A DNA stretch of 64,000 nucleotides from an uncultured bacterium (GTDB lineage Bacteria; JAGOEH01): assembly GCA_964632485.1 (NCBI GenBank), contig CAZWDO010000009.1:76850-140849 (forward strand). The letters run 5' to 3'. The notes under the pieces were generated by a model. It searched no databases and was not told the origin of the DNA. It saw only the letters and a list, made by a program, of their open reading frames with translations. Positions 40,097-64,000 of this stretch are shown piece by piece; the first letter of the stretch is position 1, and each line of letters starts with the position of its first letter. The position numbers were made by a program, and so were the translations under genes.

Positions 40097-40144
40097 GCAT
40101 TATTATGGGGCTAACCAAGCAACTACAACAAGTTGAGAACCGGA

Positions 40145-49118: not shown

Positions 49119-49134
49119 TCCGGAGCCTGAATCC

Positions 49135-50163: not shown

Positions 50164-50294
50164 AGCTTATGGATTGATTTTCAGAATATAATAATGTGTC
50201 ATTTCAAATTGCATCAATATATCCGATAGTAAACCGAATCTTCCGTTGGTATGAAGATGGGCAACAATGAAAACAAGATTTCAAGGACAGATGA

Positions 50295-51035
50295 ATGTCA
50301 ATTTATATTGATCCCCGTGCGGAAATAGCCAACAATGTCGTCATAGAGGAAGGCGCCATGATAATCGGGCCGAGCAAAGTAGGCGCTGGAAGTATTATCG
50401 GAAATCATGTCGTATTAGGCCACCCGTCCAAGGCGACGATTACTGAAACTCATACTCTACGACAATCCATTGGCGCAAGCATTGGCGAAGGAAGCATTAT
50501 CCGCTCAGGTAGCGTGATCTATGAAAATGTCCAAATCAAGGAGAAATTCCAATGCGGACATAATACTGTAATCCGTGAAGGAGTCTCAATTGGATCGAAT
50601 TGCGCTATTGGCAATAGCTGCATTATTGAATGGGGTACGACCGTTGGGGATAATGCCCGCTTTCAGAATTGTATCACAATCGGAGAAAAAGTTTTGCTTG
50701 GAAAAAATATTTTTATTGGGCCAAATGTAACACTAACGACAGGGCGCTATATGCTTTCAGCTTTGGTGGCCGGAGGCAAACTGACAGATCGTGATTTTCA
50801 GGATATGGAAAAAGAATATTTATCTCAGCCTGGAGTGATTGCCGAGGATGATGTGAGAATTGGCGCCAACGCCGTGGTTCTGGCAGGGGTACGCTTGTAT
50901 TCAGGGGCTGTTGTTTCGGCCGGAGCCGTGATTTCTGTCGACGTGCGAAGCGGATACATGGCTGTTGGGAATCCGGGAAGGGTCTTTGTGTTGGAAAAAA
51001 GCAGAAAGGAACGCACCAGTGATGATGGATTTTGA
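50295..51035 (+). CDS. Left-handed beta-helix acyl/acetyltransferase
   Basis: Hexapeptide repeats, IGANAVVLAGV, AVGNPGR. Confidence 0.88.
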   Translation: MSIYIDPRAEIANNVVIEEGAMIIGPSKVGAGSIIGNHVVLGHPSKATITETHTLRQSIGASIGEGSIIRSGSVIYENVQIKEKFQCGHNTVIREGVSIGSNCAIGNSCIIEWGTTVGDNARFQNCITIGEKVLLGKNIFIGPNVTLTTGRYMLSALVAGGKLTDRDFQDMEKEYLSQPGVIAEDDVRIGANAVVLAGVRLYSGAVVSAGAVISVDVRSGYMAVGNPGRVFVLEKSRKERTSDDGF

Positions 51036-52293
51036 ACAATTGAATATCGGTGACGAAAAAGTATTCCTTCATTGTATAGAGGCGGAAGATGTTGATCGAT
51101 TCGCTGCGTTGTCAGGAGATGATAATCCGCTGCACATGGATGAGGGCTTCGCGAAGTCCATGGGATACCGAAGTCGGGTCGTTCATGGGATTTTATCCAT
51201 GGCCTATATTTCCAAACTGATCGGTATGGATTTACCGGGCCCTGGAGCATTGTGGACGGAGCAGAGATTCCGGTTTCTGAAGCCTGTTTATATAGGAGAT
51301 GAAATCGAATACAGGGTGAGAGTCCAGCATAAATCTAGCTCGACGCGGATGTTGGTTATCCATATATCCGCACATAATCAATCCGGGGAGAAGATTCTCG
51401 ATGGGGAGGGACATGTTGCCTTATTATCTTCCGATCGGGCGGCTGTAGCATTTGCTAATGGTTTTGAATCCATCCGGACAGTGGCGAATGTGTCCGCTAT
51501 AGAAGGGAGCGCTTTTAGTAATATCAAAGCGGGAGATTCGCAGCAGTCAAGTAAGACTTTGGCCCTAATTACGGGTTCATCGCGGGGCATTGGATCGGCG
51601 ATTGCGACTCAAATTGCCGCATTGGGAATACCGGTAATTGTTAATTATCATACAAATCGATTAGAAGCTGAAAAAGTATGCCAGCGCATTGAAGAATCAG
51701 GTGGCCGGGCCATAGCCATTCAAGCCGATGTTACGAATCGAATGGATTTGGAGGAGATGATTAAGCGTGGTGAAAGTGAATTGCGCGGAACAATATCAAT
51801 TTTAGTCAACAATGCCGGAGGTAGTATTCCAGTTAAAAATTTTTTGGAAAGTGAATGGCAAGAAATTGATCGCCATTGGCAGATACAGGTGAAAGCGGCT
51901 TTTGATTGTACGCAATTAGTTTTGCCTGGGATGATCCAAGATGGATGGGGGCGAATTGTGAATATCGGTTCCATTTTCACATGGGGAGTTCCGCCTAACA
52001 ATCTCACTGGATATGTCATCGCTAAAAACGGGTTGAAAGGATTGACGAAGAGCCTGGCAAACGAATTCGGTCCCAAGGGGATAACTGTCAATATGATTTC
52101 TCCCGGAATGACTGAGACAGAGCTGATTGCGGATATTCCGGAACGGATACGAAAAGTGAACGCCATGCAAACACCCTTGCGGCGCTTAGCCTCTCCGCGG
52201 GATATTGCCGGTGTCGTGGCCATGCTGGTCTCACCCGCGGGGAATTACATCAACGGCGCCGACATTCCCGTCTGTGGCGGAAAGGAAATGTAA
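51022..52293 (+). CDS. MaoC (hot-dog) dehydratase fused to FabG-like SDR ketoreductase
   Basis: FAALSGDDNPLH..VVHG hydratase motif; TGSSRGIG, NNAG, YVIAK SDR motifs; likely start 51022. Confidence 0.9.
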   Translation: MMDFEQLNIGDEKVFLHCIEAEDVDRFAALSGDDNPLHMDEGFAKSMGYRSRVVHGILSMAYISKLIGMDLPGPGALWTEQRFRFLKPVYIGDEIEYRVRVQHKSSSTRMLVIHISAHNQSGEKILDGEGHVALLSSDRAAVAFANGFESIRTVANVSAIEGSAFSNIKAGDSQQSSKTLALITGSSRGIGSAIATQIAALGIPVIVNYHTNRLEAEKVCQRIEESGGRAIAIQADVTNRMDLEEMIKRGESELRGTISILVNNAGGSIPVKNFLESEWQEIDRHWQIQVKAAFDCTQLVLPGMIQDGWGRIVNIGSIFTWGVPPNNLTGYVIAKNGLKGLTKSLANEFGPKGITVNMISPGMTETELIADIPERIRKVNAMQTPLRRLASPRDIAGVVAMLVSPAGNYINGADIPVCGGKEM

Positions 52294-52305
52294 ACCGGTA
52301 AGTTT

Positions 52306-54171
52306 ATGATTGAAGTATCAATAAAAAGAAAGATAGAGTCATTAATCCAATCAGGAGCAACGGATGAGGCGCTTGTCGAACTGAATCGGATAGCCAGGCA
52401 AGTGGCCTATAGCTCCGACGCCGGGTACCTGATTAGCCAATACCAAGCCATAAGCGTATCGTTTCCGCTACGAAAATTAGCTGTTTTGAGATCCTATACT
52501 CTGGAGCCGCTGATTCCTTTCATTCGTTGTTACGGATACAGCTTTGGGATATCGTTCGATATCCAATTGGGCGGTTATAATACCTTTTATCAGGAGTTGA
52601 CCACTGATGATGCTTTTCTGGTAAAAATGGCTCCGGATATTGTGTTGATCGCATTAAGCGCCTCGGATGTACTTCCACGGCACTGGTTTGAGTTTACACA
52701 GTCTCGTTGTGAGGACTTGGATCGCGAAAGTGAGCGGCTTCTGACTGATTTACGATCCGCTTTGGAGACTTTTCGCAGGAAATCCGATGCGACAATACTG
52801 ATCCATAATTTTGACATTCCGGTATATGCGCAGCAGGGAGTTCTGGATGTCCGATCTGCGGGAGGGCAGATAGAGCGTATTGCTCGTCTGAACCAACGAT
52901 TGCAGGAGTTATGTAGTCTTTATCCGGGTTGCTATGTATTTGATTATCAGGGATTGGTGGCTAACAACGGTCGGTTTCGGTGGTACGATGAATACAAATG
53001 GGCGACGATGCGAATGCCATTGGCAGCTCATTCAATACCGCTGTTGGCGATGGAGCATTTTCATTATTTTCTGCCCATAATGGGCAAGACTTGTAAGGCA
53101 TTGGCGATAGATCTTGATAATACCCTCTGGGGCGGCGTTATCGGGGAGGATGGACTCGAAGGTATTCAACTGGGTATCGAATATCCCGGTGTTGCGTTTC
53201 GTCGGCTTCAGCAGGCGATATTGGACTTGTTTCATCGTGGAATAATACTAGCAATATGCAGCAAAAACAACAGGGAGGATGCAATTCAGGTTTTCAAAGA
53301 GCATCCGTACATGATTCTGAAAATGGAACATTTTGCGGCAATGCGGATCAATTGGCAGGACAAAGCGGCCAATCTACGGGAATTGGCAAAGGAAATCAAC
53401 ATCGGATTGGATTCCATGGCGTTTTTGGATGACAATCCCTATGAACGCGATCTCATCCGGCAGGAGCTTCCAAGTGTTATGGTTTTCGATCTTCCGGATC
53501 AGCCCATGGAGTATTCCAATTGTCTGCGATCTCAACCATTTTTCCAAAAATTGAACGTGTCAAAAGAGGATAGAGAACGCGGCCGCTATTATGCGGAACA
53601 ACGCCAACGCATAGAATGGATGGAGTCGGCTTCAGATATGGAAAGCTTCTTGAAATCACTGGACATGGAGGTTGCCATCAAACCTGTCAATGCCCTTACC
53701 CTTCAGCGGGTTGCGCAGCTAACTCAGAAAACTAACCAGTTCAATCTAACGACCCGGCGTTATTCGGAACAGCAAATCTCTGAAATGATGAACCGGGATG
53801 ATTATGAAATTATAACTTTATCACTGTACGACCGCTTTGGTGACAACGGATTGGTAGGAGTGGCAATTATCCAGTACTTTATGGATAAGGCTATAATAGA
53901 CACATTTTTGTTGAGCTGCAGAGTTATCGGACGAAAGGCGGAAACAGCTCTTTTGGCTTACATTATTGAACAAGCGGTGAAAAAAGGAAAAGAATCTGTT
54001 GAAGGCTGGTATTTGCGTACAGCAAAAAATGAGCCGGCCCGGGATTTTTATCCACAACATGAATTTAGCGCTGTCGAGAAGAATGCTAACAACATTCGTT
54101 GGCAATTAGACATACGCATGAATTCAGTCCCATACCCGGATGTCTTTAAATATAACTTGTCAGGGAGTTAA
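52306..54171 (+). CDS. FkbH-like HAD-IIIC phosphatase / glyceryl-ACP synthase
   Basis: DLDNTLWGG, CSKNN, FLDDNPYE, KTNQFNLT, DRFGDNG, LSCRV. Confidence 0.92.
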   Translation: MIEVSIKRKIESLIQSGATDEALVELNRIARQVAYSSDAGYLISQYQAISVSFPLRKLAVLRSYTLEPLIPFIRCYGYSFGISFDIQLGGYNTFYQELTTDDAFLVKMAPDIVLIALSASDVLPRHWFEFTQSRCEDLDRESERLLTDLRSALETFRRKSDATILIHNFDIPVYAQQGVLDVRSAGGQIERIARLNQRLQELCSLYPGCYVFDYQGLVANNGRFRWYDEYKWATMRMPLAAHSIPLLAMEHFHYFLPIMGKTCKALAIDLDNTLWGGVIGEDGLEGIQLGIEYPGVAFRRLQQAILDLFHRGIILAICSKNNREDAIQVFKEHPYMILKMEHFAAMRINWQDKAANLRELAKEINIGLDSMAFLDDNPYERDLIRQELPSVMVFDLPDQPMEYSNCLRSQPFFQKLNVSKEDRERGRYYAEQRQRIEWMESASDMESFLKSLDMEVAIKPVNALTLQRVAQLTQKTNQFNLTTRRYSEQQISEMMNRDDYEIITLSLYDRFGDNGLVGVAIIQYFMDKAIIDTFLLSCRVIGRKAETALLAYIIEQAVKKGKESVEGWYLRTAKNEPARDFYPQHEFSAVEKNANNIRWQLDIRMNSVPYPDVFKYNLSGS

Positions 54172-54177
54172 TAACGA

Positions 54178-54420
54178 ATGGAACCGATTAATTACCGTGT
54201 GGTTGAAATTATTGCGGATGTTTTCAATCTTGAATCGTCGCAAGTTCAGATGGATGCCAGTCCCGACACCATTGAGGAGTGGGATTCCATCCAGCATCTC
54301 AACATCGTTTTAGCTTTGGAACAGGAATTCCATCTTCAGTTCTCGCCTGAGGAAATTTCCGAGATGTTGAATGTGGAGTTGATTGTAATGCTGATAGCTG
54401 AAAAGCTGAGTAAGAACTGA
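54178..54420 (+). CDS. Acyl carrier protein
   Basis: Acidic 80-aa protein with WDSIQHL phosphopantetheine serine motif. Confidence 0.92.
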   Translation: MEPINYRVVEIIADVFNLESSQVQMDASPDTIEEWDSIQHLNIVLALEQEFHLQFSPEEISEMLNVELIVMLIAEKLSKN

Positions 54421-54444
54421 TATGGCAAAGGAGTTCTCCAATAA

Positions 54445-55923
54445 ATGAAGATTCTGCTAATTGTGCCGCCTAACGTCGAAGGGCAAATGACTGATCGTGA
54501 AGATCGCCATTCCGGTTTTGCTTCGGGAATGTATCCGCCTTATACGGCCGCTCAGATATTAAGCGCCTTGCGTTTGAAGTATTCGGAGATTGATATGTCA
54601 GCCATCGATGGCAGAATTGATTACATCAGCCATTCATCGCTGTTAAGTCGAATCGACGAATTAAATCCCGATTTAATCATCTGCCTGATGGGTGTCTATA
54701 TGATCCAGGAAGACCGGGTATTTGCCGAATTATCATACCCGACTATTGGCGTGCTTTGCCCGTCATCTGTAAGCCCCCGGGAAGCCATTGAGCTTTTCAA
54801 ACTGAAAACCCCCTACTTCACTAAGAGCGAAATTGAAAATACGTTAGTGGAGGCTGTGGGAGAATTTAAGAACAAAGGACTAATAGAAAAATCTTGCGGA
54901 TTGTTAATCAATGGGGAAACCGGAATTAGAGATACAGGGGATCAAAAGACTCTTGATATTTCATGGCTACCTATCCCCGCTTTCGACATGTTTCCTATGG
55001 ATCGCTATTTTACCTATCAGCGAGATGTTTTGAAATGGCACTGGGAGTTTGGAAAAAATAAGTATATGTGGATGGTGACTTCAAAAGGGTGTGTTAAAAA
55101 ATGCCTTTATTGTGATTCAAGTTGCATTAATCCAGTATATAAAAGCCCCCGTCAGGTCGTGGATGAGTTGCGGCACTACGTGGCGACTTATCAAGTTCGC
55201 CATTTCGATTTTTTTGACAGCGAATTTACGGTCAATCCCAAAAGGAGCAAGGATATCTGCCGTCTGATTTTTGAAGAAAAGCTTGGGATTACATGGGTAG
55301 CGCACAATATTGTCGATTTTGCCGATGATGAACTGATGGAGTTGATGAGTCGGGCGGGTTGTATTAAATTAAAATATGGACTTGAGACAGGGGATGATAA
55401 TATTAAAAGAAAAATAAATAAACCATGGACAATGCAGCAAGCCCATAAAGCTTTTAGCTTGACGAAAAAATATGGAATGAAAGTGCATGCAAATTTTATG
55501 GTAGGTTTTCTTGGAGAAAACAGGGAAAGCCTTAAAAAAACATACAAGGCATTCATGGAACTAAAACCGGATATTGCCTGTAGTTCGATATTATTTCCTT
55601 CGCCGGGATCTAAGTTCTATTATGAACTCAAAAAAGAAGGGTTACTTTTAGAGACCAACTGGAGCGAATATAAAAATTACCGTAAAATGATTTTTAAGCA
55701 TGATACATACAGTAATTGGGAAGAAATTGTTAAAAATTACCACTGGTTAGAGCAGAAAATAGCTTTTGGATTAGCGGTTAATAACTTATTCATAAATAAA
55801 AATCAAAAATTTATAATTCGTATATTAAATGTATTAAAGTCAATTCAACTGCTTAAAAGAATAATTTTAAAGCTGCCATACTTTAATAAGATGCTAGTTG
55901 ACCTCATGCATAGAACTGATTAA
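54445..55923 (+). CDS. Radical SAM enzyme, probably B12-binding (class B-like)
   Basis: TSKGCVKKCLYC (Cx3Cx2C), GLETG, FMVGFLGE; N-terminal B12-binding-like domain. Confidence 0.82.
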   Translation: MKILLIVPPNVEGQMTDREDRHSGFASGMYPPYTAAQILSALRLKYSEIDMSAIDGRIDYISHSSLLSRIDELNPDLIICLMGVYMIQEDRVFAELSYPTIGVLCPSSVSPREAIELFKLKTPYFTKSEIENTLVEAVGEFKNKGLIEKSCGLLINGETGIRDTGDQKTLDISWLPIPAFDMFPMDRYFTYQRDVLKWHWEFGKNKYMWMVTSKGCVKKCLYCDSSCINPVYKSPRQVVDELRHYVATYQVRHFDFFDSEFTVNPKRSKDICRLIFEEKLGITWVAHNIVDFADDELMELMSRAGCIKLKYGLETGDDNIKRKINKPWTMQQAHKAFSLTKKYGMKVHANFMVGFLGENRESLKKTYKAFMELKPDIACSSILFPSPGSKFYYELKKEGLLLETNWSEYKNYRKMIFKHDTYSNWEEIVKNYHWLEQKIAFGLAVNNLFINKNQKFIIRILNVLKSIQLLKRIILKLPYFNKMLVDLMHRTD

Positions 55924-55934
55924 TAGAGAATAAT

Positions 55935-57059
55935 ATGAAAATTGGAATGTTTGGAAATGTGCTCAACTGGGGTTATTTGTTGGGAAAAGCTTTAATATTA
56001 AGTGGTCATGAAGTAGATCTATTTCTTAAAATTGATGAAAACATTAAATGCTATGATCCAAGCTGGGAAGATGATGATTTTGATATCCAATCAAATAAAT
56101 GGATACATTATGAAAACCTAAAGTTGAGCAATATCTTCAATCTTCGGTTTAGAAGTAAGTTATTAAAGACAATGAATGTTTTTGATGTATTGATTGCAAT
56201 CGGAGAATATGCGATATGGGTTTCACAAGCTCAAAAACCATATATAGTGATCAGTTATGGAGGTGATTTAGACGAGTTACTCAAAGTTAAGTGTTCTGTT
56301 AAGAGCATTTTGTTATCTAGGTTGCTCAAGTCATCATTCAGAAAAGCTGCGAGATTTATATATGCTCTTCCCACTCAAAGAGCACTGATAAATAAGCATA
56401 AAATAAAAAATAGTTTGTTTAAATCAAATGTTGTACCGATTGATGTGAAAAAGTACTTAATGTTAGATGATGAAAAAAAAGCGATTTTTCGGAGTAAATA
56501 TTCAGAGCAGTATGTCTTTTTCCATCCTGCAAGACAAGAATGGCGTCTTAAGGATTCAAACGATAAAGGGAATGATCGGTTATTTTATGCGTTTGCAAGA
56601 TTCGTTTGTAAAAACTGCTCAAACTCCTTATTAATTGCAATTGAAAAGGGGAGAGATGTTAATAATAGTAAACAGCTTGTTAAGGAACTTGGAATTGAAC
56701 GCAATGTGTCATGGCGTGGGGAGATGAATAAAGAAGATTTAATCAAAATGTTTAACAGTGTGGATGCATTGTTTGATCAATTCGTTTATGGTTATTATGG
56801 AGTACTTGATCTTGAGGCGATGTCATGCGGATTACCAGTTTTCACATACATAAATGTCGAAACAGCAAAAAATATAGAGTTGCCATCCATTTTCAATGTT
56901 AGTTCAATAGATGAAATTTATACTCAAATGATAAGATTTTCTCAAGGACAGTTAGAATATTCACCCGAAGGACTCTCAAATTGGGTTAAGAAGCATCATG
57001 ACAGCAATAGAATTGCCAATGAACTTATTGAAATAATAAATCAGTATTGTAATGCTTGA
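55935..57059 (+). CDS. GT4-like glycosyltransferase
   Basis: DQFVYGYYGVLDLEAMSCGLPV motif; KG motif. Confidence 0.82.
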   Translation: MKIGMFGNVLNWGYLLGKALILSGHEVDLFLKIDENIKCYDPSWEDDDFDIQSNKWIHYENLKLSNIFNLRFRSKLLKTMNVFDVLIAIGEYAIWVSQAQKPYIVISYGGDLDELLKVKCSVKSILLSRLLKSSFRKAARFIYALPTQRALINKHKIKNSLFKSNVVPIDVKKYLMLDDEKKAIFRSKYSEQYVFFHPARQEWRLKDSNDKGNDRLFYAFARFVCKNCSNSLLIAIEKGRDVNNSKQLVKELGIERNVSWRGEMNKEDLIKMFNSVDALFDQFVYGYYGVLDLEAMSCGLPVFTYINVETAKNIELPSIFNVSSIDEIYTQMIRFSQGQLEYSPEGLSNWVKKHHDSNRIANELIEIINQYCNA

Positions 57060-58497
57060 ACATATAAAAAAAATCCTAAGCCATACTACTTTATACGGCT
57101 TTGCAAGTTTATCTAACATTGTATCTGGTTTAGTCCTTCTCCCCTTCTATTTAAAGTATCTTTCAATTGAAGAATTTGCATATTTTTCTTTAATAATGAA
57201 TTTTGGGACACTGATAGTGTATATTGTGGATCTCGGGTTAATCACGTCAATTGTGCGACTATACTACGATATGAGTGATGATATAAACGAAGTTAAAAAG
57301 CTTTTCTCCACTGGGTTAATTGCTTATTCAGTTCTATCTCTACTAGTAATCACATTTGTTTTTTTTTCTCGTTTTAAATTGAATTCTTTTATTACGAACA
57401 GTAGAACTGATCCTTTATTGATCTTATTAATGACGGGAATTGCGTGCTTGAATTTGATCTTTTGCGTTCCTCAAAATATGCTCAGAGTCAGATTTGAGCC
57501 AAGTAAATATTTCTTATTGTCTATTCTGAAGTCGGTATTGACAGTACTGATTCTATTTTCTTTTATTATGATATTTAAAAATAAGTTGATTTTTATATTT
57601 ATGACATTTTTAAATGTCTCTTTATTAGTCACATTCTTAGGATTATTTATTAATTATAGGTATTTTAGCATTTCATTTTCTGCAAAATTGCTAAAAACAA
57701 TACTATTGATTGGGCTGCCTTTCTGGCCAACATTAATTTTTACATGGTTGATAGACTCATCTAACATCTTTTTCATAAAGCATTTTGTTTCTTTAGAAAG
57801 CTCAGCGGTATATTCATTTGGACATAAAATCGGCCAAATAGTATACTATATTGTCACTTCTTTCGCGATAGCCTGGATTCCAATTTCATTCAGAATTAAA
57901 GAAAATGAAGCAACTCCGCAATTAACTTTATCGCGGATTTTTAATTGGTACGTTTTGGTGCTATCTTCGATTTCATTGTTTCTCTGCATGATTAGCTATA
58001 GATTTATATATTTTTTTGCTAAAAGCGAGTATTATGCGGCTACATCCATTATTCCAATAATCGCTTTTGGATACATAATGTATGGAGTATATTATTATTT
58101 TCTGACAGGAATACTATATTCAAAAAAACTTTATTTACAGACCTATACATTAATGGCAGCGGCTGTTTTAAACATTCTTTTAAACCTATTTCTTGTACCG
58201 AAATTTACACTTATAGGTTCAAGTATAGCTTTGGTAATGTCTTATCTCACAGCGGCCTTAGTAGCGCTTTACTTTTCACAAAAGCAGTTTTATATACCAT
58301 ATCAATTCAACAGATTAGCCAAATCAGTTGGATCAGTATTATTGACATATGGTATTTTTATCAAAATAGATAATTTAATCCCAAATATATATTTACATTT
58401 GTTCTTTGGAATAATTATTTATTTTGTGTTCATTAGCATACTAAAGCTTATTGATATTCGATCCCTATACAATTCAGTAGTCAATGCCTACGGATAA
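57052..58497 (+). CDS. wzx: Wzx-type polysaccharide flippase
   Basis: Many TM segments, LLPFY, DLGL, LNILLNLFLVP patterns. Confidence 0.85.
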   Translation: MLEHIKKILSHTTLYGFASLSNIVSGLVLLPFYLKYLSIEEFAYFSLIMNFGTLIVYIVDLGLITSIVRLYYDMSDDINEVKKLFSTGLIAYSVLSLLVITFVFFSRFKLNSFITNSRTDPLLILLMTGIACLNLIFCVPQNMLRVRFEPSKYFLLSILKSVLTVLILFSFIMIFKNKLIFIFMTFLNVSLLVTFLGLFINYRYFSISFSAKLLKTILLIGLPFWPTLIFTWLIDSSNIFFIKHFVSLESSAVYSFGHKIGQIVYYIVTSFAIAWIPISFRIKENEATPQLTLSRIFNWYVLVLSSISLFLCMISYRFIYFFAKSEYYAATSIIPIIAFGYIMYGVYYYFLTGILYSKKLYLQTYTLMAAAVLNILLNLFLVPKFTLIGSSIALVMSYLTAALVALYFSQKQFYIPYQFNRLAKSVGSVLLTYGIFIKIDNLIPNIYLHLFFGIIIYFVFISILKLIDIRSLYNSVVNAYG

Positions 58498-58509
58498 TTC
58501 TTAAATTGA

Positions 58510-59535
58510 ATGAGGTTGAACATGGTTTATAAATGTATTAATTGTAATTCACAATTGATAGAACATATAGATTATCTTGATTGTGAAAAATGTAAAAGAA
58601 CATACCCTAGAATATCGAAAGTACTTGTTTTTGATGATGAAAATGATCGGAACTGGAGCAATTTCTATGATGATTGGCATGAGAATGTAACAAAAAAAAA
58701 TATCGCAAAAGGAACCCCACGTATTTTATCTAAAATCAAAAAAAATATTTTGATAGAATCGTTTAAACGAGTTGGGTTTTACCATGAATATAGAAAAACA
58801 GCTTTTATAAAAGATGCCTTAAAAAAACAGAAATCATTACAAATACTGGATGTTGGATGCGGTAAAGGCAATCCCATTTTGAGCGCGTATGGAAATGTGT
58901 ATGGGGTGGATTTAAGCATGAATGCATTGTTATATAATAATCATAATTTTAACTATACTGAATTAATAAAATGCAATATTTATACATTGCCTTTTTTTGA
59001 TAACCAATTTGATTTGTTGGTGAATATTTTTGTGTTTGGTCATATTGAATTCAATAAAAAGGATGAACTTTTAAGAGAATTTTATCGGGTTTTGAAACCT
59101 GATGGACAATTGATCATGATTGTAGAAACAGACAACAACAATTTTGTATTAAGATTCGCAAAAAAATACCCGGATATTTATCAAAACAGGGTAGTTATGC
59201 AATATGGACATATAGGCATGGAATCTGTAAAACAGACTATTGAAAGAATTAAAAATAATAATTTTATAATTATTAAACGAAATAAAACGTGGGGGCCTTT
59301 ATGGAGTATTAACGATTATATTGAAGTTTTTGATAATGAATATAAAGATAAATCTGTATTTATACGTCTATTTATTCGTATTTGTAAGGTGCTTAAGAAA
59401 AATCGACTGGTTGAAATTGTTTTTAATGCATTGTTAGGTTTGCTATCAATGATTTATGATTCAATTACAAAGTTAGATAATTCGATGGGATTGATGATTT
59501 TTGCGAGAAAATTTAAAGCGGAGCTTTATGAATAA
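58510..59535 (+). CDS. Class I SAM methyltransferase with N-terminal zinc ribbon
   Basis: CINC/CEKC, ILDVGCGKG, LPFFDNQFD, RVLKPDG. Confidence 0.87.
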   Translation: MRLNMVYKCINCNSQLIEHIDYLDCEKCKRTYPRISKVLVFDDENDRNWSNFYDDWHENVTKKNIAKGTPRILSKIKKNILIESFKRVGFYHEYRKTAFIKDALKKQKSLQILDVGCGKGNPILSAYGNVYGVDLSMNALLYNNHNFNYTELIKCNIYTLPFFDNQFDLLVNIFVFGHIEFNKKDELLREFYRVLKPDGQLIMIVETDNNNFVLRFAKKYPDIYQNRVVMQYGHIGMESVKQTIERIKNNNFIIIKRNKTWGPLWSINDYIEVFDNEYKDKSVFIRLFIRICKVLKKNRLVEIVFNALLGLLSMIYDSITKLDNSMGLMIFARKFKAELYE

Positions 59536-60277
59536 AGAGTTTATTTTTACTTATGATCAATATATACAATTCTTGAAATTCTCCTTAAATTATCGAAAAT
59601 TTTCCTTTTTTAATTCTGAAGAACAGCAAGACATCTTTATATTAAGACATGATATTGATGTTTTTTTACAGCCTGCGGTCAAGATTGCATTGCTCGAGAA
59701 GGAAATCGATATTTCGTCGACTTTTTTTTTATTACAGACTAGTCCTTGTTATAACCCAAATACACAAAACAATCATAAAATGATAATGGAAATTATCAAT
59801 CTTGATCATCAGATTGGATTGCATTTCGATCCTCTGGTATATCAAACTATCGATATAAATGTACTTTCACAAAAACTGGCTCAAGAAAGAGATTGTTTGG
59901 AACAATTAATTGGGAGAAAAGTGAGTTGTTTCAGTTTGCATAATCCATCAGTATCAGGTCAAATGCCTCAATTAGATACTGACATGATAAATGCATATAG
60001 CATAAATTATTTTAATAATGATTCATATTTATCAGATTCTTGTCGAAATTTTCGGGGGAAGAACCCTTATGACTTTGTACAGAAAGTAAAATCTAAGAAA
60101 GCCCAGCTTCTATTTCATCCATTTCATTTTTCAGAACACGAAGTAGGTTATAAGAAACTTTTTCTGAATTATACTCAAAGATTTCTGGAGGATATTGATG
60201 AAGTATTTAGGATTAATTCTCAATACAATAGAGAATTACCTGATGGGTTATCAACAAATTTTATGAGATGTCAGTAA
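59528..60277 (+). CDS. Polysaccharide deacetylase-like protein (WbmS-like)
   Basis: LRHDID, STFF, IGLHFD, SLHNP, YLSDS, LFHP motifs. Confidence 0.78.
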   Translation: MNKEFIFTYDQYIQFLKFSLNYRKFSFFNSEEQQDIFILRHDIDVFLQPAVKIALLEKEIDISSTFFLLQTSPCYNPNTQNNHKMIMEIINLDHQIGLHFDPLVYQTIDINVLSQKLAQERDCLEQLIGRKVSCFSLHNPSVSGQMPQLDTDMINAYSINYFNNDSYLSDSCRNFRGKNPYDFVQKVKSKKAQLLFHPFHFSEHEVGYKKLFLNYTQRFLEDIDEVFRINSQYNRELPDGLSTNFMRCQ

Positions 60278-61201
60278 ATGATTATTTTAGCAAATACAAT
60301 AATCCATAGATTTAAAGATATAATCAAAATCGTTGGTGACTTCAATGATATTGAGATTTCAGGAATTTCAGCAATCGCCAATGCTCATGAAAATCATTTA
60401 ACATGGATTCACCCTAAAAAGCCAAACAAAAGTGAAATTATTCTAAATACGAAGTCACGGTTAATTATAACAGATGAATCTATTGAAGAAGAAATTTGTA
60501 AAGCATATAAAAAATGCTTGATTGTAAATTCTAACCCAAAATTGTTATTCACTGAAATCGCTAATCTTTTTTTTTCAAACCAGCAGAAGTATGAAATATG
60601 TGCTGACACTCATATCCATTCAGATGCCAAAATATCAAAAGAGGTCTATATTGGCCCGAATACAATTATTGGAAGAGCTACAATTGGCAAAAATGTAAGA
60701 ATATTGGGAAATGTCTATATCAGTGATAATACTTATATTGGTGACAATGTAACGATATCTGCTGGATCGGTAATTGGTTCGGAAGGTTTTGGTTACACGA
60801 GAAACATTGATGGTAAATTTGTAAATTTCCCTCAAATTGGTGGAGTAATTATTAGCGATAATGTTGATATTGGTCCCAATAGCTGTATTGACAGAGGGGC
60901 GCTATCAGATACAATCATCGAAGAGAATACTAAAATAGGCCATTTGGTTTATATTGCGCATAATTCAAAAATCGGAAAAAGTAATTTGTTAATTGCCAAT
61001 ATTGTTATATCAGGAAGTGTTACAACGGGAGATGAAGTTTACATTGCACCAGGTGTTGTAATTTCAGATAATATTAGCATTGGAAATAACTGCTTTGTTG
61101 GAATTGGAACAATTGTCACAAAATCGATTCGTGATAACAAGCGAATTTTATCACGGAATATTGAAATTATTGAATTGGATCAACATACATTTAAAAAGTA
61201 A
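60278..61201 (+). CDS. LpxD-like N-acyltransferase paralog
   Basis: LpxD N-domain (NPKLLF), IGSEGFGY, PQIGGV, IDRGALSDT, KIGHLVYIAHN; lacks the LpxD C-terminal helical domain. Confidence 0.85.
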   Translation: MIILANTIIHRFKDIIKIVGDFNDIEISGISAIANAHENHLTWIHPKKPNKSEIILNTKSRLIITDESIEEEICKAYKKCLIVNSNPKLLFTEIANLFFSNQQKYEICADTHIHSDAKISKEVYIGPNTIIGRATIGKNVRILGNVYISDNTYIGDNVTISAGSVIGSEGFGYTRNIDGKFVNFPQIGGVIISDNVDIGPNSCIDRGALSDTIIEENTKIGHLVYIAHNSKIGKSNLLIANIVISGSVTTGDEVYIAPGVVISDNISIGNNCFVGIGTIVTKSIRDNKRILSRNIEIIELDQHTFKK

Positions 61202-61242
61202 CTGTTCAATAGCTTTCTAAGAATAAACTAATCAATCGAGCG

Positions 61243-61442: not shown

Positions 61443-61600
61443 CATGAATTGAGTCAATTAAAAACACTCAACCGCCAGTTTGGGATGTAATTGAAGATCA
61501 TTTCAATTCAAAGAAAATAACAAACAATCATTTTTTATGTCAAGTCATTTAATGGAATTTAAATTTTTAAAGCAATCCAAATAACAAACTACAGACAATC

Positions 61601-63058
61601 ATGGCATTCAACTCAATTCAGTTTTTCGTATTTGTTTTATTCATTTTTATTGTTTATTACTGGGTAAAACCCAAGGCTGGAATGCTGGTTTTAGCAGTTG
61701 GAAGTTTTCTTTTCTATTTAACGTTTCAGAGTCTGATTTCCACATTGGTATTGGGCAGTGTTATTACGATAGCCTATATCTCTGGTCTTCGTATTGAAAA
61801 ATGCCAATCACCCGCGGGCAAAAAGCTTTGGCTGTTCGGGGGCATAGCGCTGATTCTCGCTGCTCTGATTTACTTTAAGTATGGTTCTTTTATTTATAAT
61901 CTCTATATTACGAATCTGATTCAGGAAAACACCTCAACCGGCACATCCTCGTATCTGGCAGTCATTGGCATATCATATTTTACATTTCAAGCTATATCAT
62001 ATATTGTGGATATATATTTAGGAGTTAGTACCGCGGAAGCAAACCCTTTGGCTCTCTTCCTATATTTTGGTTTCTTTGCTAAAGTGCTCCAAGGTCCAAT
62101 CGAGCGCGGAAAGAGTTTTCTTACACAAATCCGAGGAAGGGAGAATTTTGAATATTCAATGGTATTGAGTGGTTTTTTACTATTCATGTACGGCTTAGTT
62201 AAGAAGATTTTAATTGCCGATAATATGGCCAGTTTTGTTGATCCTATTTTTGATTCGGCTTCAACTCAATCAGGGTCGCAATTGTTGGCAGCTATTAATT
62301 TCTATTCACTTCAAATTTATTTTGATTTTTCAGGTTATACGGATATGGCGCTGGGAGTCGCGAGATTGTTCAATATTAGGCTTACTGATAACTTTCATAA
62401 TCCCTATTTCGCGACAAGCATCGCTGATTTTTGGCGTCGCTGGCATATATCATTGTCCAGATGGTTGATGGATTATCTGTTCAAACCGATTCAGATGAAA
62501 TTCAGAAACTTGAAACAATATAGTACGATAATAGCTGTTTTCATTACATTTGCCATATGCGGTTTGTGGCATGGCGCTGCATTGCATTACATTGTTTGGG
62601 GCTGTTTGCATGGGATAGTGATGATTCTGGGGATTATGACCCAACCATTTCGGGCCGATTTAGCAACGCAATTTAAGAGACTAAATAAGCGTTTTATAAC
62701 AGTATGGAGAATATTTATTACATATAATATAGTCACTTTTTTATGGATTTTCTTTCGTTCAAAATCGCTGGTTGCTGCTTTGGATAACTTTAAGGCGATT
62801 TTTTTCAGGTTTGAACTCGGGAGCTTAGACCTTAGTTTTTTCAATGGATCTGTTTTCATAGCAGCATGGATTATTCTGATCATTGAGTATTTGAATTGGC
62901 CTCAGCGTTTTATTCAATTGTTCAGTAACCAAAAGTTAACATTTTTTAAGCACTTTTCCTATGCTTTCATTTATTACGCAATTATTTTGTTTTTATTTAT
63001 CATAATGTACTCATTTACCATAAATACAAATCAACCTTTCATTTACGTGCAGTTTTAA
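61601..63058 (+). CDS. MBOAT family O-acyltransferase (AlgI/DltB-like)
   Basis: GISYFTFQAISY, QGPIER, DFSGYTDMA, FWRRWHISLS, GLWHGA. Confidence 0.93.
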   Translation: MAFNSIQFFVFVLFIFIVYYWVKPKAGMLVLAVGSFLFYLTFQSLISTLVLGSVITIAYISGLRIEKCQSPAGKKLWLFGGIALILAALIYFKYGSFIYNLYITNLIQENTSTGTSSYLAVIGISYFTFQAISYIVDIYLGVSTAEANPLALFLYFGFFAKVLQGPIERGKSFLTQIRGRENFEYSMVLSGFLLFMYGLVKKILIADNMASFVDPIFDSASTQSGSQLLAAINFYSLQIYFDFSGYTDMALGVARLFNIRLTDNFHNPYFATSIADFWRRWHISLSRWLMDYLFKPIQMKFRNLKQYSTIIAVFITFAICGLWHGAALHYIVWGCLHGIVMILGIMTQPFRADLATQFKRLNKRFITVWRIFITYNIVTFLWIFFRSKSLVAALDNFKAIFFRFELGSLDLSFFNGSVFIAAWIILIIEYLNWPQRFIQLFSNQKLTFFKHFSYAFIYYAIILFLFIIMYSFTINTNQPFIYVQF

Positions 63059-64000
63059 TGATGACGGACCGGATAAAGCTCAGTCTCGCTACTTTTTTTG
63101 CATTTGTGTCATTTTTAATTATGTTCGGGTTCATGCTGCTTGTTTTCGATCAGTTGTTGCATCGAAAATTCGACAAAATCGCCGGATTGAATTATAAAGG
63201 TTATCGGGGAGAAATCCGCAAGGAGAAAGCCTCCGACGAATTGCGTATTGCGATGTTCGGAGGTAGCCCGCTTTGGGGCTATGGTGTCTATTATTGGGAG
63301 GCCATTCCACATGTTTTGGAGAAAAAACTACAACATCATGTGGACTCCTTGGGGTTAAATAGGAGAATTACGGTTTTCAACTTAGGATATAACAATGAAG
63401 GTATCTATGCCATCTATAATAATATGCAGGATTTCCGGTTTTTGGATTATGATATCGCTATCATATTTACAGGCTATGATGATTTGGGGATTGGCAATAC
63501 TACAAATTTCAGACGAGAGAATTTATTCTTTAAATACTTTAAATATATGCCGATTTTGCCAGTATATTTAAGCGAAAAGATCATGTTGTTAAAGTCGGAT
63601 GGAAATCTTGAGGATGCATACTGGGGCACTAACCAAAAAGCGCAGGCTGATGTTGACCATAATCTTCACGTAAATGCTCTTGCCAATATCCTCTCGGTTT
63701 ATAATTCCACTGAAAATGTATTGAAGAGAATTGGAAAAGTTCAGAAACAGTATCTTGTTGATTTTGATCTTAAAAATGATAAATGGGCTTGGATGAAATA
63801 CTATTTAAGACAGAGCATTGATTATTCGGTGGAAGATGGTGTACAGGTTCTTATTATTACTGAACCGGTATTCACGGAAGAGTGTCTTGAACAACAGAAA
63901 ATCATGAAAGCAGTTGTAGATGAAGCGGTCGATGAAAGTGGAATGGTTCATTTTATCGATCTAGGCTCTCGGATCGAACTGAATGATGATTTATTGATTG
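63058..64000 (+). CDS. SGNH/GDSL-family protein (MBOAT partner), 3'-truncated by the window edge
   Basis: Hand translation: TM, NYKGYRG, RIAMFGGS, VFNLG, FTGYDDL; TAATG coupling to MBOAT. Confidence 0.75.
   Translation, partial: MMTDRIKLSLATFFAFVSFLIMFGFMLLVFDQLLHRKFDKIAGLNYKGYRGEIRKEKASDELRIAMFGGSPLWGYGVYYWEAIPHVLEKKLQHHVDSLGLNRRITVFNLGYNNEGIYAIYNNMQDFRFLDYDIAIIFTGYDDLGIGNTTNFRRENLFFKYFKYMPILPVYLSEKIMLLKSDGNLEDAYWGTNQKAQADVDHNLHVNALANILSVYNSTENVLKRIGKVQKQYLVDFDLKNDKWAWMKYYLRQSIDYSVEDGVQVLIITEPVFTEECLEQQKIMKAVVDEAVDESGMVHFIDLGSRIELNDDLLI

What the first reader, a model, noticed from the sequence alone, without database searches (positions are those of the whole stretch)
51022..64000. Stand-alone glyceryl/lactyl-ACP module inside a surface-glycan operon, with a possible deacetylate-then-reacylate route
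Seen: adjacent genes for a MaoC dehydratase-ketoreductase fusion, FkbH and an ACP. The same run continues with radical SAM, GT, flippase, methyltransferase, deacetylase, LpxD paralog and MBOAT/SGNH. No ketosynthase is present. Known: FkbH loads glycerate from 1,3-bisphosphoglycerate onto ACP. DH+KR+FkbH+ACP is the domain set proposed to make a lactyl starter in trans-AT PKS loading modules (bryostatin BryA type). LpxD uses acyl-ACP to N-acylate a deacetylated amino sugar. Inference: these free-standing genes make glyceryl- or lactyl-ACP. The deacetylase + LpxD-like pair, or MBOAT/SGNH, would then install it on an amino sugar of the glycan, perhaps with later methylation.
Basis: partly seen in the sequence, partly recalled or inferred. 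Interest (0 to 1): 0.8.

Follow-up and report, generated by a model that had tools for sequence, protein, structure and literature searches.

The report
Three-carbon acyl-carrier cassette in glycan operon
A surface-sugar operon of an uncultured bacterium contains a small enzyme set, borrowed from antibiotic-type chemistry, that most likely makes a lactyl or glyceryl group on a carrier protein and attaches it to an unusual amino sugar, giving a testable genetic route to such sugar decorations.

Summary
The gene run is real. It holds a MaoC-SDR fusion, a full-length FkbH (324 bits, cut-off 147), an 80-aa ACP, a radical SAM enzyme, GT4, Wzx, a methyltransferase, a CE4-fold deacetylase, an LpxD paralog and MBOAT plus an SGNH-like protein. 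There is no ketosynthase. The genuine lpxD lies on another contig.

FkbH-ACP pairs are widespread: 597 stretches in species genomes. ACP sits directly downstream in 58 of 80 loci. A MaoC gene lies within 4 kb in 24 of 80. Their neighbours are glycan genes.

- A QdtC-like hexapeptide acyltransferase (50295-51035) overlaps the fusion gene.
- The two genes before it are orthologs of the Psychrobacter UDP-uronate oxidase/decarboxylase (62% identity) and its aminotransferase, so the acceptor is probably a 4-amino-pentose.
- The deacetylase-LpxD pair is an independent conserved module (23 of 80 loci, none with FkbH).

My odds:
- A C3 acyl-ACP decorates this glycan: about 0.8.
- Transfer by the overlapping acyltransferase: 0.4.
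- Transfer by deacetylase plus LpxD paralog: 0.3.
- Transfer by MBOAT: 0.12.

This scan has noted the same kind of cassette on other DNA eight times. No enzyme has been tested.

The parts
47041..47997 (+). NDP-hexuronate 4-oxidase/6-decarboxylase, an ortholog of Pcryo_0617. It is not a 4,6-dehydratase.
   Evidence: PDB 8vr2 at 445 bits. Foldseek gives 62% identity and TM 0.9 to 'Pcryo_0617 oxidoreductase/decarboxylase'. Pfam Epimerase 196 bits.
47973..49118 (+). DegT-family sugar aminotransferase that forms the 4-amino group.
   Evidence: DegT_DnrJ_EryC1 312.8 bits. About 313 bits to PDB 8vr3/8vr5/9bgp aminotransferases. Overlaps the previous gene by 25 nt.
49135..50163 (+). Conserved protein of unknown family with a fold like D-2-hydroxyacid dehydrogenases.
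   Evidence: No Pfam or NCBIfam hit. The Atlas structure search gives TM 0.57-0.60 to 2-Hacid_dh clusters. Homologs are present in 5 of 80 CE4-centred loci; in L139 the homolog directly follows the aminotransferase.
50295..51035 (+). 246-aa left-handed beta-helix (hexapeptide) sugar N-acyltransferase. My preferred user of the acyl-ACP.
   Evidence: Hexapep 86.8 bits. The nearest solved relative is QdtC (3fs8, E 3.9e-21); it scores only 23.4 bits to the Psychrobacter acetyltransferase 8vr6. Its stop lies 14 nt inside the next gene.
51022..52293 (+). MaoC hot-dog dehydratase fused to a FabG-like SDR. Proposed to convert glyceryl-ACP to pyruvyl-ACP and then lactyl-ACP.
   Evidence: Motifs SGDDNPLH, TGSSRGIG, NNAG and YxxxK are present. 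Fused homologs lie next to FkbH in 8 of 80 loci, and separate MaoC and SDR genes in 4 more.
52306..54171 (+). Full-length FkbH-like loader: N-terminal domain, HAD phosphatase domain and C-terminal Cys domain.
   Evidence: TIGR01686 324.3 bits against a cut-off of 146.65. D269, D271, T273 and C538 are invariant in 20 sequences. Residues 50-419 match PDB 3slr at E 1.8e-52. It is the only copy in the genome.
54178..54420 (+). Dedicated 80-aa acyl carrier protein, with Ser37 as the attachment site.
   Evidence: Starts 6 nt after FkbH. W35 is invariant, and D36 and S37 are at least 90% conserved in 28 homologs. An ACP lies directly downstream of FkbH in 58 of 80 loci.
54445..55923 (+). Radical SAM enzyme resembling PhpK, HpnJ and BchE. 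Role unknown.
   Evidence: Radical_SAM 80.9 bits. All NCBIfam hits are far below their cut-offs. The nearest solved relative is AprD4 (6fd2, E 1e-12). It is not a recurrent neighbour of FkbH.
55935..57059 (+). GT4 glycosyltransferase.
   Evidence: Glycos_transf_1 38.7 bits. First gene of the low-GC block, with GC3 0.285.
57052..58497 (+). Wzx-type flippase.
   Evidence: Polysacc_synt 55.5 bits.
58510..59535 (+). Class I SAM methyltransferase.
   Evidence: Methyltransf_11 67 bits.
59528..60277 (+). CE4 (NodB)-fold de-N-acylase of an unnamed family.
   Evidence: AF2 pLDDT 93. Foldseek hits to CE4 enzymes at probability 1.0, with ArnD and WbmS also listed. D42, D44, H99, H138 and H197 are invariant in 27 sequences.
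60278..61201 (+). LpxD paralog, a 307-aa N-acyltransferase. It starts at the base after the CE4 gene's stop.
   Evidence: The catalytic His228 is invariant in 21 homologs. The C-terminal helical domain is truncated compared with this genome's own LpxD. The genuine lpxD is elsewhere.
61601..63058 (+). MBOAT membrane O-acyltransferase of AlgI/DltB-like type.
   Evidence: MBOAT 85.4 bits. TIGR04091 DltB 169.8 bits against a cut-off of 375. It lies 399 nt after the LpxD paralog.
63058..64000 (+). Membrane-anchored SGNH-like partner of the MBOAT. The gene runs 86 nt beyond the window, and the full protein is 342 aa.
   Evidence: Lipase_GDSL_2 E 0.0017, below cut-off. The full ORF is L009:108-1136.

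Best explanation
**Tier 1 (about 0.8).** LbH246, MaoC-SDR, FkbH and ACP form a self-contained unit that builds a three-carbon hydroxyacyl group on a private carrier protein and uses it to decorate the glycan made by this operon.
- FkbH takes 1,3-bisphosphoglycerate, removes the phosphate with its HAD domain, holds glycerate on Cys538 and passes it to Ser37-phosphopantetheine of the ACP. This step is inferred from the family's established chemistry; the motifs are shown here.
- The MaoC domain then eliminates the 3-OH, giving enol-pyruvyl and so pyruvyl-ACP. The SDR domain reduces the 2-keto group to give lactyl-ACP. This is inferred by analogy with the DH-KR-FkbH-ACP loading logic of trans-AT polyketide synthases. 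I put lactyl at about 0.55 and unmodified glyceryl at about 0.2. Possible methylation by the radical SAM enzyme or the methyltransferase is open.

**Tier 2 (the full statement, 0.4).** The acceptor is the 4-amino group of an NDP-2-acetamido-4-amino-pentose of arabinose type. The three genes just upstream make it: a uronate oxidase/decarboxylase, an aminotransferase and a protein of unknown family. The transferase is the QdtC-like hexapeptide enzyme at 50295-51035. It occupies the place of the pathway's N-acetyltransferase and is translationally coupled to the cassette.

Under this reading the CE4 deacetylase and LpxD paralog further downstream are a separate, widely conserved module. They swap the sugar's inherited N-acetyl group for another acyl group drawn from a general pool.
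For: **Shown.**
- Domain content and intact motifs.
- Gene overlaps and 6-12 nt gaps from LbH246 to ACP.
- One compositional block from 47041 to 54420 (GC3 0.43-0.53), against 0.23-0.29 for GT4 through the LpxD paralog.
- The FkbH family is large: 7997 proteins at E <= 1e-10 and 597 stretches in species genomes.
- Among the 80 best loci, an ACP hit occurs in 70 and lies directly downstream in 58.
- A MaoC gene lies within 3 kb in 20 loci. It is fused to an SDR in 8 and sits beside a separate SDR in 4.
- The neighbours are glycan genes: NeuB, DegT, PglF-like, CMP-transferases, GT4, Wzc/Wza, sulfotransferases and UDP-sugar dehydrogenases.
- Candidate acyltransferases within 4 kb fall into largely exclusive classes: a GNAT-like 376-440-aa family in 20 of 80, hexapeptide in 18 of 80, AAC(3)-like in 13 of 80. 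Seven hexapeptide genes abut FkbH or the ACP directly.
- Acceptor pathway: 62% identity to Pcryo_0617 oxidoreductase/decarboxylase and about 313 bits to the matching aminotransferases. LbH246 scores only 23 bits to that pathway's acetyltransferase 8vr6, so the acyltransferase here is a different one.

**Literature (passages read).**
- P. cryohalolentis O-antigen carries 2,3,4-triacetamido-2,3,4-trideoxy-L-arabinose (PMC8040287).
- C. jejuni 11168 makes Pse with a 5-N-(2,3-di-O-methylglyceroyl) group, and its flagellar glycosylation island carries the FkbH-domain gene cj1302 (PMC3068675; PMC7099621).
- The genes for N-glyceroyl groups on Pse were stated to be unknown in 2017 (PMC5378307).
Against: - No enzyme of such a glycan cassette has been assayed, so every chemical step is inference.
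- LbH246's nearest solved relatives (QdtC, DapD-type, WxcM-like) use acyl-CoA, not acyl-ACP (donor use recalled).
- Hexapeptide transferases are about as common in CE4-centred glycan loci that lack FkbH (16 of 80) as near FkbH (18 of 80). Their presence alone is therefore not specific.
- LbH246's best-scoring relatives (61-68 bits) are in FkbH-less loci, while those next to FkbH score 23-41 bits.
- The LpxD family is the one hexapeptide family known to use acyl-ACP. In genome G011 an LpxD-paralog-like gene directly follows FkbH-ACP.
- The MaoC-SDR pair is hot-dog/FabG type, not the PKS DH/KR type of BryA, so the lactyl chemistry is an analogy.
- The uronate precursor's dehydrogenase is not in the locus. 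Three candidates lie on other contigs.
Confidence: 0.4

Rival explanations
1. The CE4 deacetylase removes the N-acetyl group that the sugar inherited from its GlcNAc-type precursor. The LpxD paralog then re-acylates that amine with lactyl- or glyceryl-ACP from the cassette. This mirrors LpxC and LpxD in lipid A synthesis. LbH246 would then simply N-acetylate the 4-amino group.
For: - LpxD enzymes use acyl-ACP donors (established knowledge).
- The catalytic His228 and the GFG motif are retained.
- The CE4 and LpxD-paralog genes abut with no gap.
- The pair is conserved. The paralog lies directly downstream on the same strand in 23 of 80 CE4-centred loci, which is 22 of the 53 that have room for it.
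- In 13 of the 37 loci of 5 kb or more a formyltransferase is present; in L094 it sits directly after the CE4 gene, where the paralog would be. This fits a freed amine being re-acylated.
- KASIII genes lie in three such loci, L117, L123 and L146; L117 and L146 also carry the paralog and a weak FabG-type SDR hit. This suggests short 3-hydroxyacyl-ACP donors.
- In G011 a 296-aa homolog (32% identity over 279 aa) directly follows FkbH-ACP.
- Glyceryl-ACP is itself a 3-hydroxyacyl-ACP.
Against: - None of the 80 CE4-centred loci contains FkbH or this ACP.
- None of the 80 FkbH-centred loci has an LpxD-like gene within 4 kb.
- The closest syntenic loci, L139 and L154, have the same decarboxylase, aminotransferase, unknown protein, CE4, LpxD paralog and GT4 order without any FkbH cassette. 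The orthologous paralog there must use another donor.
- The paralog family lacks most of LpxD's C-terminal helical domain, which in E. coli LpxD docks ACP (the docking role is recalled).
- It lies 6 kb from the ACP in a block of different composition.
Confidence: 0.3
2. This is a Dlt-like route. FkbH plays the part of DltA and the ACP the part of DltC. The MBOAT takes the lactyl or glyceryl group from the ACP across the membrane. The membrane-anchored SGNH-like protein then esterifies a hydroxyl of the exported polymer.
For: - DltB-type MBOATs take their acyl group from a phosphopantetheinyl carrier protein (established knowledge).
- This MBOAT's only NCBIfam hit is DltB, at 169.8 bits.
- In a Saccharibacteria locus, L062, the gene order is AcpS, FkbH, ACP, MaoC, SDR, MBOAT, a membrane-anchored 398-aa protein, then GT4. 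No other acyltransferase is nearby.
- L061 has a similar gene set (AcpS, FkbH, ACP, MaoC, MBOAT and a homologous membrane protein), less tightly packed. In L070, from a Thaumarchaeote, an MBOAT directly precedes FkbH-ACP-MaoC. G011 has an MBOAT in the same operon.
- None of the 80 CE4-centred glycan loci has an MBOAT hit.
Against: - The DltB score is far below the 375-bit cut-off, and at 485 aa the protein has AlgI/PatA-like length.
- MBOAT plus SGNH pairs are common O-acetylation modules.
- Only 2 of 80 FkbH loci have an MBOAT within 4 kb, with L061's further away.
- A 399-nt gap separates it from the rest of the operon.
- The SGNH-like protein shows no detectable similarity to the partners in L061, L062 or L070.
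Confidence: 0.12
3. The cassette is not a glycan-tailoring unit here. It might feed a lipid or a small metabolite. Alternatively the MaoC-SDR fusion acts on CoA thioesters such as crotonyl or 3-hydroxybutyryl-CoA, independently of FkbH.
For: - MaoC-SDR fusions resemble the hydratase and dehydrogenase parts of beta-oxidation multifunctional enzymes (recalled).
- 13 of the 53 FkbH loci with at least 4 kb on both sides show none of my candidate acyltransferase classes nearby.
Against: - The cassette is packed tightly inside one glycan operon.
- MaoC or MaoC-SDR genes repeatedly abut FkbH or its ACP across phyla.
- The neighbours are consistently sugar-pathway genes.
- There is no ketosynthase, condensation domain or lipid-synthesis gene in the run.
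Confidence: 0.08

Closest known systems
FkbH/OzmB-type glyceryl-ACP loaders of polyketide pathways, and the DH-KR-FkbH-ACP lactate loading module of trans-AT PKSs (BryA type; recalled)
   Same: A full-length FkbH well above its curated cut-off, with the HAD DxDxT motif and a conserved Cys, beside a dedicated ACP. A dehydratase plus ketoreductase pair accompanies it.
   Different: The genes are free-standing. There is no ketosynthase or assembly line. The dehydratase is a MaoC hot-dog and the reductase is FabG-like, not PKS DH/KR domains. The context is a Wzx-type glycan operon.
Campylobacter jejuni NCTC 11168 flagellar glycosylation island: the FkbH-domain gene cj1302, ACP genes and Cj1295, with the product Pse7Ac5(2,3-di-O-methylglyceroyl)
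   Same: FkbH and ACP sit inside a locus for an N-acylated amino sugar. A 'remove the acetyl group, then add a glyceroyl-type group' idea was already proposed there (PMC3068675; PMC7099621). A Sporomusa locus, L060, shows PseBCFGHI with ACP, FkbH, an AAC(3)-like transferase, DUF4910/DUF2172 and a methyltransferase.
   Different: The window has no AAC(3)-like transferase and no DUF4910/DUF2172 protein. It adds MaoC-SDR. Its cassette sits with an amino-pentose pathway, 11 kb from PseI. The genome lacks recognisable PseF and PseG.
Psychrobacter cryohalolentis K5 pathway to 2,3,4-triacetamido-2,3,4-trideoxy-L-arabinose (Pcryo_0617 oxidoreductase/decarboxylase, aminotransferase and N-acetyltransferase; PDB 8vr2, 8vr3/8vr5, 8vr6)
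   Same: The decarboxylase is 62% identical. The aminotransferase scores about 313 bits. The order of steps is the same: oxidise and decarboxylate, aminate, N-acylate.
   Different: The N-acyltransferase is not the ortholog (23 bits to 8vr6), and it is coupled to an acyl-ACP cassette. I could not read the paper behind those PDB entries, because it is not in the library. Their substrates are inferred from the entry title and from PMC8040287.
LpxC/LpxD of lipid A synthesis, and ArnA/ArnB/ArnD of the aminoarabinose pathway
   Same: A de-N-acylase is paired with an N-acyltransferase acting on a nucleotide-linked or lipid-linked amino sugar. The upstream chemistry (decarboxylase plus aminotransferase) is ArnA-C/ArnB-like. 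ArnD appears among the structural matches of the CE4 protein. An ArnT-like PMT_2 glycosyltransferase follows the window.
   Different: The deacetylase has the CE4 fold, not the LpxC fold. The LpxD paralog is below the equivalog cut-off and lacks the C-terminal helices. The genuine lpxD is elsewhere.
DltABCD D-alanylation system
   Same: A carrier protein, an MBOAT and a membrane-anchored esterase-like protein occur in one operon. The Saccharibacteria locus L062 has a strikingly parallel gene order.
   Different: There is no DltA adenylation enzyme. The MBOAT is far below the DltB cut-off. No DltD family hit was found.

Membership tests
FkbH family (TIGR01686) | Score above the curated cut-off over the whole FkbH domain | tested here: met
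   324.3 bits against a cut-off of 146.65, covering residues 262-588. The whole-genome search gives 326.4 bits and a single copy.
FkbH family (TIGR01686) | HAD phosphatase DxDxT motif, and a conserved Cys in the C-terminal domain (the acyl-enzyme site; its role is recalled) | tested here: met
   D269, D271, T273 and C538 are invariant in 20 aligned sequences. The DLDNT motif aligns to PDB 3slr.
FkbH family (TIGR01686) | A dedicated ACP partner with a phosphopantetheine-attachment serine | tested here: met
   The ACP gene starts 6 nt downstream. The W35-D36-S37 motif is conserved.
FkbH family (TIGR01686) | Forms glyceryl-S-ACP from 1,3-bisphosphoglycerate | not testable with these tools
   Needs an enzyme assay with mass spectrometry.
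BryA-type DH-KR-FkbH-ACP loading module | PKS-type DH and KR domains fused within a ketosynthase-containing assembly line | tested here: not met
   The dehydratase is MaoC/FAS1_DH-like and the reductase is adh_short/FabG-like. The Pfam KR hit scores only 23.3 bits. No KS is present in any of the 17 proteins. It may work like this module, but it is not a member.
LpxD (TIGR01853 equivalog) | Score above the equivalog cut-off | tested here: not met
   215.7 bits against 242.5. The broader subfamily model NF002060 is met, at 219.6 against 207.
LpxD (TIGR01853 equivalog) | Catalytic histidine in the beta-helix | tested here: met
   His228 (motif IAHN) aligns with the genome's own LpxD and is invariant in 21 paralog-family sequences.
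LpxD (TIGR01853 equivalog) | C-terminal helical domain (ACP docking in E. coli LpxD; recalled) | tested here: not met
   The paralog ends about 20 residues after the helix, against about 50 in the genome's LpxD.
LpxD (TIGR01853 equivalog) | Is the genome's lipid A enzyme | tested here: not met
   A separate gene on contig C5 scores 364.7 bits, with a second hexapeptide-transferase gene (a 288-aa frame, possibly lpxA) about 2 kb away.
CE4 / NodB polysaccharide deacetylases (PF01522) | Sequence match to the family model | tested here: not met
   No Pfam hit at E <= 0.1. A profile of 27 homologs reaches CE4 chains only at E 0.0011-0.18.
CE4 / NodB polysaccharide deacetylases (PF01522) | The CE4 fold | tested here: met
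   A model with pLDDT 93 gives 27 PDB matches at E <= 0.001. Nearly all are CE4 enzymes, at probability 1.0 and TM about 0.45-0.59.
CE4 / NodB polysaccharide deacetylases (PF01522) | Asp-His-His metal site and a catalytic Asp | tested here: inconclusive
   D42, D44, H99, H138 and H197 are invariant. I did not superpose them on a solved active site.
Pseudaminic acid pathway (PseB, C, H, G, I, F) | All six enzymes present | tested here: not met
   PseC (472 bits), PseB (448.6) and PseI (440.5) are above their cut-offs. PseG has no match. The best PseF match is 40.5 bits, on another contig. PseH was not searched for. An orphan CTP_transf_3 gene lies on C13. The genome is 97.95% complete.
Dlt system | DltB equivalog score, DltA ligase and DltD | tested here: not met
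   TIGR04091 scores 169.8 bits against 375. None of the 17 proteins has an AMP-binding domain or a DltD hit.
Pcryo_0617-type amino-pentose pathway | Orthologous oxidase/decarboxylase and aminotransferase | tested here: met
   62% identity and TM 0.9 to 8vr2. About 313 bits to 8vr3 and 8vr5.
Pcryo_0617-type amino-pentose pathway | Orthologous N-acetyltransferase (8vr6) | tested here: not met
   LbH246 scores 23.4 bits (E 3.6e-4) to 8vr6, against 78.9 bits to QdtC.

The most novel reading that the evidence does not exclude
The cassette is the cytoplasmic half of a Dlt-like system. FkbH replaces the DltA ligase and, with MaoC-SDR, charges a carrier protein with lactate or glycerate. The MBOAT and its membrane-anchored partner then ester-link that group to an exported cell-envelope polymer. 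This would be a new class of carrier-protein-dependent envelope acylation, shared by Saccharibacteria, Thaumarchaeota and this bacterium.
Probability: 0.12. Interest if true: 0.8.

Novelty: new variant of a known kind. Interest (0 to 1): 0.6.

Why it matters
N-glyceroyl, di-O-methylglyceroyl and related hydroxyacyl groups occur on pseudaminic acid and other amino sugars of Campylobacter, Tannerella and Vibrio surfaces. A 2017 study stated that the genes responsible were unknown (PMC5378307). My searches for FkbH together with pseudaminic, O-antigen plus acyl carrier protein, polysaccharide, or lactyl found 1, 0, 3 and 0 papers. Of the two hits I opened, one (PMC7099621) only names cj1302 as an FkbH-domain gene and the other concerns polyketide domains; I did not open the third.

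If the cassette works as proposed, three things follow:
- A polyketide-type loader has been recruited widely to diversify surface glycans. There are at least 597 stretches encoding it across bacteria and archaea.
- It gives a simple genomic marker for predicting non-acetyl N-acyl sugars.
- It provides enzymes for making such sugars.

This locus adds a new acceptor pathway (an amino-pentose). It also holds three candidate transferases side by side, which makes it a good test bed.

Tried and rejected
- **Complex prediction.** ACP against a trimer of the LpxD paralog (residues 95-307) returned 'no answer' (score 0.00, controls not run). This is no evidence either way.
- **Sequencing runs.** No RNA holder was listed for 50295-60277. 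The only run holding the stretch may be the source sample. I did not lay reads.
- **Promoter and terminator scan.** For 46.5-64 kb it found 62 promoter-like and 14 terminator-like sites, against 60.5 and 12.7 in shuffles. It is uninformative about transcription units.
- **Plain sequence searches of the PDB.** They found nothing usable for the CE4 protein, the 342-aa protein or the 343-aa protein at 42815-43846.
- **Literature.** Searches for 8VR2/8VR3/8VR5/8VR6 and for Pcryo_0617/0618 did not find the paper behind those structures. A broad six-term search with min_terms 2 was too loose to be useful.
- **Reading rejected: the 47041 gene as a 4,6-dehydratase.** I first held this (bacillosamine-type pathway). 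I dropped it after the 62% match to an oxidoreductase/decarboxylase.
- **Reading rejected: pseudaminic acid as the acceptor here.** I considered it and ranked it low. PseI is 11 kb away, PseF and PseG are not found, and the cassette is embedded in the amino-pentose genes.
- **Other checks.** Relatives: FkbH was found in only 2 of 40 other genomes searched. It was not found in the one same-family genome (92% complete) or the one same-order genome. Earlier notes near this place: none.

Full report
**Observation.** The window is contig C9:76850-140849 of a 4.45-Mb, 97.95%-complete genome of an uncultured bacterium. From 47041 to 61201 the genes all lie on the + strand. Gaps are at most 131 nt and there are four overlaps. 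After a 399-nt gap an MBOAT gene and an overlapping partner follow.

- a MaoC-SDR fusion at 51022-52293;
- FkbH at 52306-54171 (TIGR01686 324.3 bits against a cut-off of 146.65);
- an 80-aa ACP;
- a radical SAM enzyme, a GT4, a Wzx flippase and a methyltransferase;
- an LpxD-like protein (215.7 bits, below the equivalog cut-off of 242.5);
- an MBOAT.

None of the 17 proteins scanned has a ketosynthase.

Two labels needed work. The 'deacetylase' matches no family model. However, a model built on 27 homologs (pLDDT 93) matches CE4 chitin and peptidoglycan deacetylases, and also ArnD and WbmS. Its D42, D44, H99, H138 and H197 are invariant. The 'SGNH' protein rests on a sub-threshold hit, E 0.0017.

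There are three points.

1. A 246-aa hexapeptide acyltransferase (50295-51035) ends 14 nt inside the MaoC-SDR gene. Its nearest solved relative is the sugar N-acetyltransferase QdtC, E 3.9e-21.
2. The gene at 47041 is not a 4,6-dehydratase. It is 62% identical (TM 0.9) to the Pcryo_0617 oxidoreductase/decarboxylase of Psychrobacter cryohalolentis. The next gene scores about 313 bits to the aminotransferases deposited with it. That organism's O-antigen contains 2,3,4-triacetamido-2,3,4-trideoxy-L-arabinose (PMC8040287, passages read). I infer that these two genes make an NDP-4-amino-pentose. The window's acyltransferase is not the ortholog of that pathway's acetyltransferase, scoring only 23 bits to 8vr6.
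3. Composition splits the run into blocks. GC3 is 0.43-0.53 from 47041 through the ACP. It is 0.23-0.29 from GT4 through the LpxD paralog, and 0.38-0.40 for MBOAT and its partner.

**The cassette elsewhere.**
- The FkbH protein has 7997 database relatives at E <= 1e-10. The best is only about 48-50% identical.
- It has at least 597 encoding stretches in species-representative genomes, from Acidobacteriota to CPR bacteria, Thaumarchaeota and Asgard archaea.
- In the 80 best loci an ACP hit is present in 70, lies within 500 nt in 64, and lies directly downstream on the same strand in 58.
- A MaoC gene lies within 3 kb in 20 loci. It is fused to an SDR in 8 and sits beside a separate SDR in 4. 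With more seeds, MaoC lies within 4 kb in 24.
- The surrounding genes are sugar-pathway genes. Examples are a legionaminic-type set with Wza/Wzc in a Solibacter locus, a complete PseBCFGHI set in Sporomusa, and a Maf-linked set in a Clostridium. Sulfotransferases, UDP-sugar dehydrogenases and GT4s also occur.
- Within 4 kb of FkbH the candidate acyltransferases fall into mostly separate classes: a weakly GNAT-like 376-440-aa family in 20 of 80, hexapeptide in 18, AAC(3)-like in 13, FemAB-like in 10, MBOAT in 2, and LpxD-like in 0.
- CE4 deacetylases lie within 4 kb in 17 of 80 loci.
- All catalytic motifs of the window's FkbH, ACP, MaoC and SDR parts are intact.

**The deacetylase-LpxD pair.** The genome has its own lpxD on contig C5 (364.7 bits), so the window's copy is a paralog. 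It keeps the catalytic His but lacks most of the C-terminal helical domain.

I examined 80 metagenome loci centred on the CE4 protein.
- The paralog lies directly downstream in 23. That is 22 of the 53 loci with room for it.
- In 13 of the 37 loci of 5 kb or more there is a formyltransferase; in L094, the one I checked by position, it directly follows the CE4 gene in the paralog's place.
- Orthologs of the decarboxylase and aminotransferase co-occur, at up to 451 and 324 bits.
- None of the 80 has FkbH or this ACP.

So this is an independent, conserved 'free an amine, then re-acylate it' module of amino-pentose loci. Two loci (L139, L154) share the window's gene order without the FkbH cassette. 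Against that, genome G011 has FkbH-ACP followed directly by a homolog of the paralog (32% identity over 279 aa), with no other acyltransferase beside it.

**Mechanism and odds.** That a C3 hydroxyacyl-ACP is made and ends on this glycan I put at about 0.8. With MaoC-SDR present I favour lactyl (about 0.55) over glyceryl (about 0.2). For the transferase:
- 0.4 for the overlapping QdtC-like enzyme acting on N4;
- 0.3 for CE4 plus the LpxD paralog acting on the inherited N-acetyl position;
- 0.12 for MBOAT with its partner. This is supported by the Saccharibacteria order AcpS-FkbH-ACP-MaoC-SDR-MBOAT.

The radical SAM enzyme's role is open. It resembles PhpK, HpnJ and BchE, and its nearest structure is AprD4. 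The methyltransferase's role is open too.

**Known or new.**
- C. jejuni 11168 carries an FkbH-domain gene in its flagellar glycosylation island, and makes Pse with a di-O-methylglyceroyl group. A deacetylate-then-substitute idea was proposed there in 2010.
- The genes for N-glyceroyl groups were called unknown in 2017.
- My literature searches found no paper linking FkbH functionally to glycans. Subscription journals are not covered by the library.
- This scan has noted the same kind of cassette eight times on other DNA.

I class it as a new variant of a known kind. It is untested biochemically and moderately interesting. Its specific value here is the amino-pentose acceptor and three candidate transferases in one operon.

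Noticed in passing
window 37545-41167; whole genome: PseC, PseB and PseI score above their NCBIfam cut-offs. The genome, 97.95% complete, has no PseG match, and its best PseF match is only 40.5 bits. A second, orphan CTP_transf_3 gene lies on contig C13 among gliding-ABC and peptidase genes. How, or whether, a nonulosonic acid is activated here is unclear.
   Followed up: partly
window 49135-50163: A 342-aa protein of no named family has a fold like D-2-hydroxyacid dehydrogenases (TM 0.57-0.60). Homologs are present in 5 of 80 CE4-centred loci (L115, L137, L139, L154, L169); in L139 the homolog directly follows the aminotransferase. I did not see a clear GxGxxG motif.
   Followed up: partly
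L011:11995-13317, L041:12124-13254 and 18 other FkbH loci: A 376-440-aa family with only a weak GNAT signal (Acetyltransf_1, E 7.6e-5) is the commonest gene within 4 kb of FkbH (20 of 80 loci); in most of the 13 clustered members its start lies within about 430 nt of the end of FkbH. It is probably the acyl-ACP transferase of those cassettes. It is absent from the window.
   Followed up: partly
L062:9204-15308; L061; L070: In the Saccharibacteria locus L062 the gene order is AcpS, FkbH, ACP, MaoC, SDR, MBOAT and a membrane-anchored protein. L061 (also Saccharibacteria) holds the same gene types less tightly packed, and in the Thaumarchaeote locus L070 an MBOAT directly precedes FkbH-ACP-MaoC. 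The L062 layout parallels dltABCD.
   Followed up: partly
L094:9729-10778 and 12 other metagenome loci: Formyltransferase genes (Formyl_trans_N/C) occur in 13 of the 37 CE4-centred loci of 5 kb or more. In L094 one directly follows the CE4 gene, in the position the LpxD paralog holds elsewhere. FemAB-like, WbqC-like and asparagine-synthase-like genes also recur there.
   Followed up: partly
18-21 of the 80 FkbH loci, e.g. L012:9280-9903 and L060:11570-11959: A small Glyoxalase_4 (VOC-fold) gene abuts FkbH in many loci: 21 of 80 within 4 kb. Its role in the cassette is unexplained. There is none in the window.
   Followed up: no
window 54445-55923: The nearest solved relative of the radical SAM enzyme just after the ACP is the diol dehydratase AprD4 (6fd2, E 1e-12). 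Glyceryl-ACP is a 1,2-diol. The similarity is low, and the PhpK, HpnJ and BchE models score higher.
   Followed up: no
L009:1133-2425 and L009:4342-5777 (contig C9, just beyond the window): An ArnT-like PMT_2 (GT-C) glycosyltransferase follows the SGNH-like gene. An IS element (HTH_Tnp_1 plus rve) then interrupts the glycan region. After it come a further epimerase, a FAD enzyme, methyltransferases and a carbamoyltransferase.
   Followed up: no
L175:1388-2836 (genome G011): The MBOAT in the G011 FkbH operon is split into two ORFs of 169 and 279 aa. This may be a frameshift or an assembly error.
   Followed up: no
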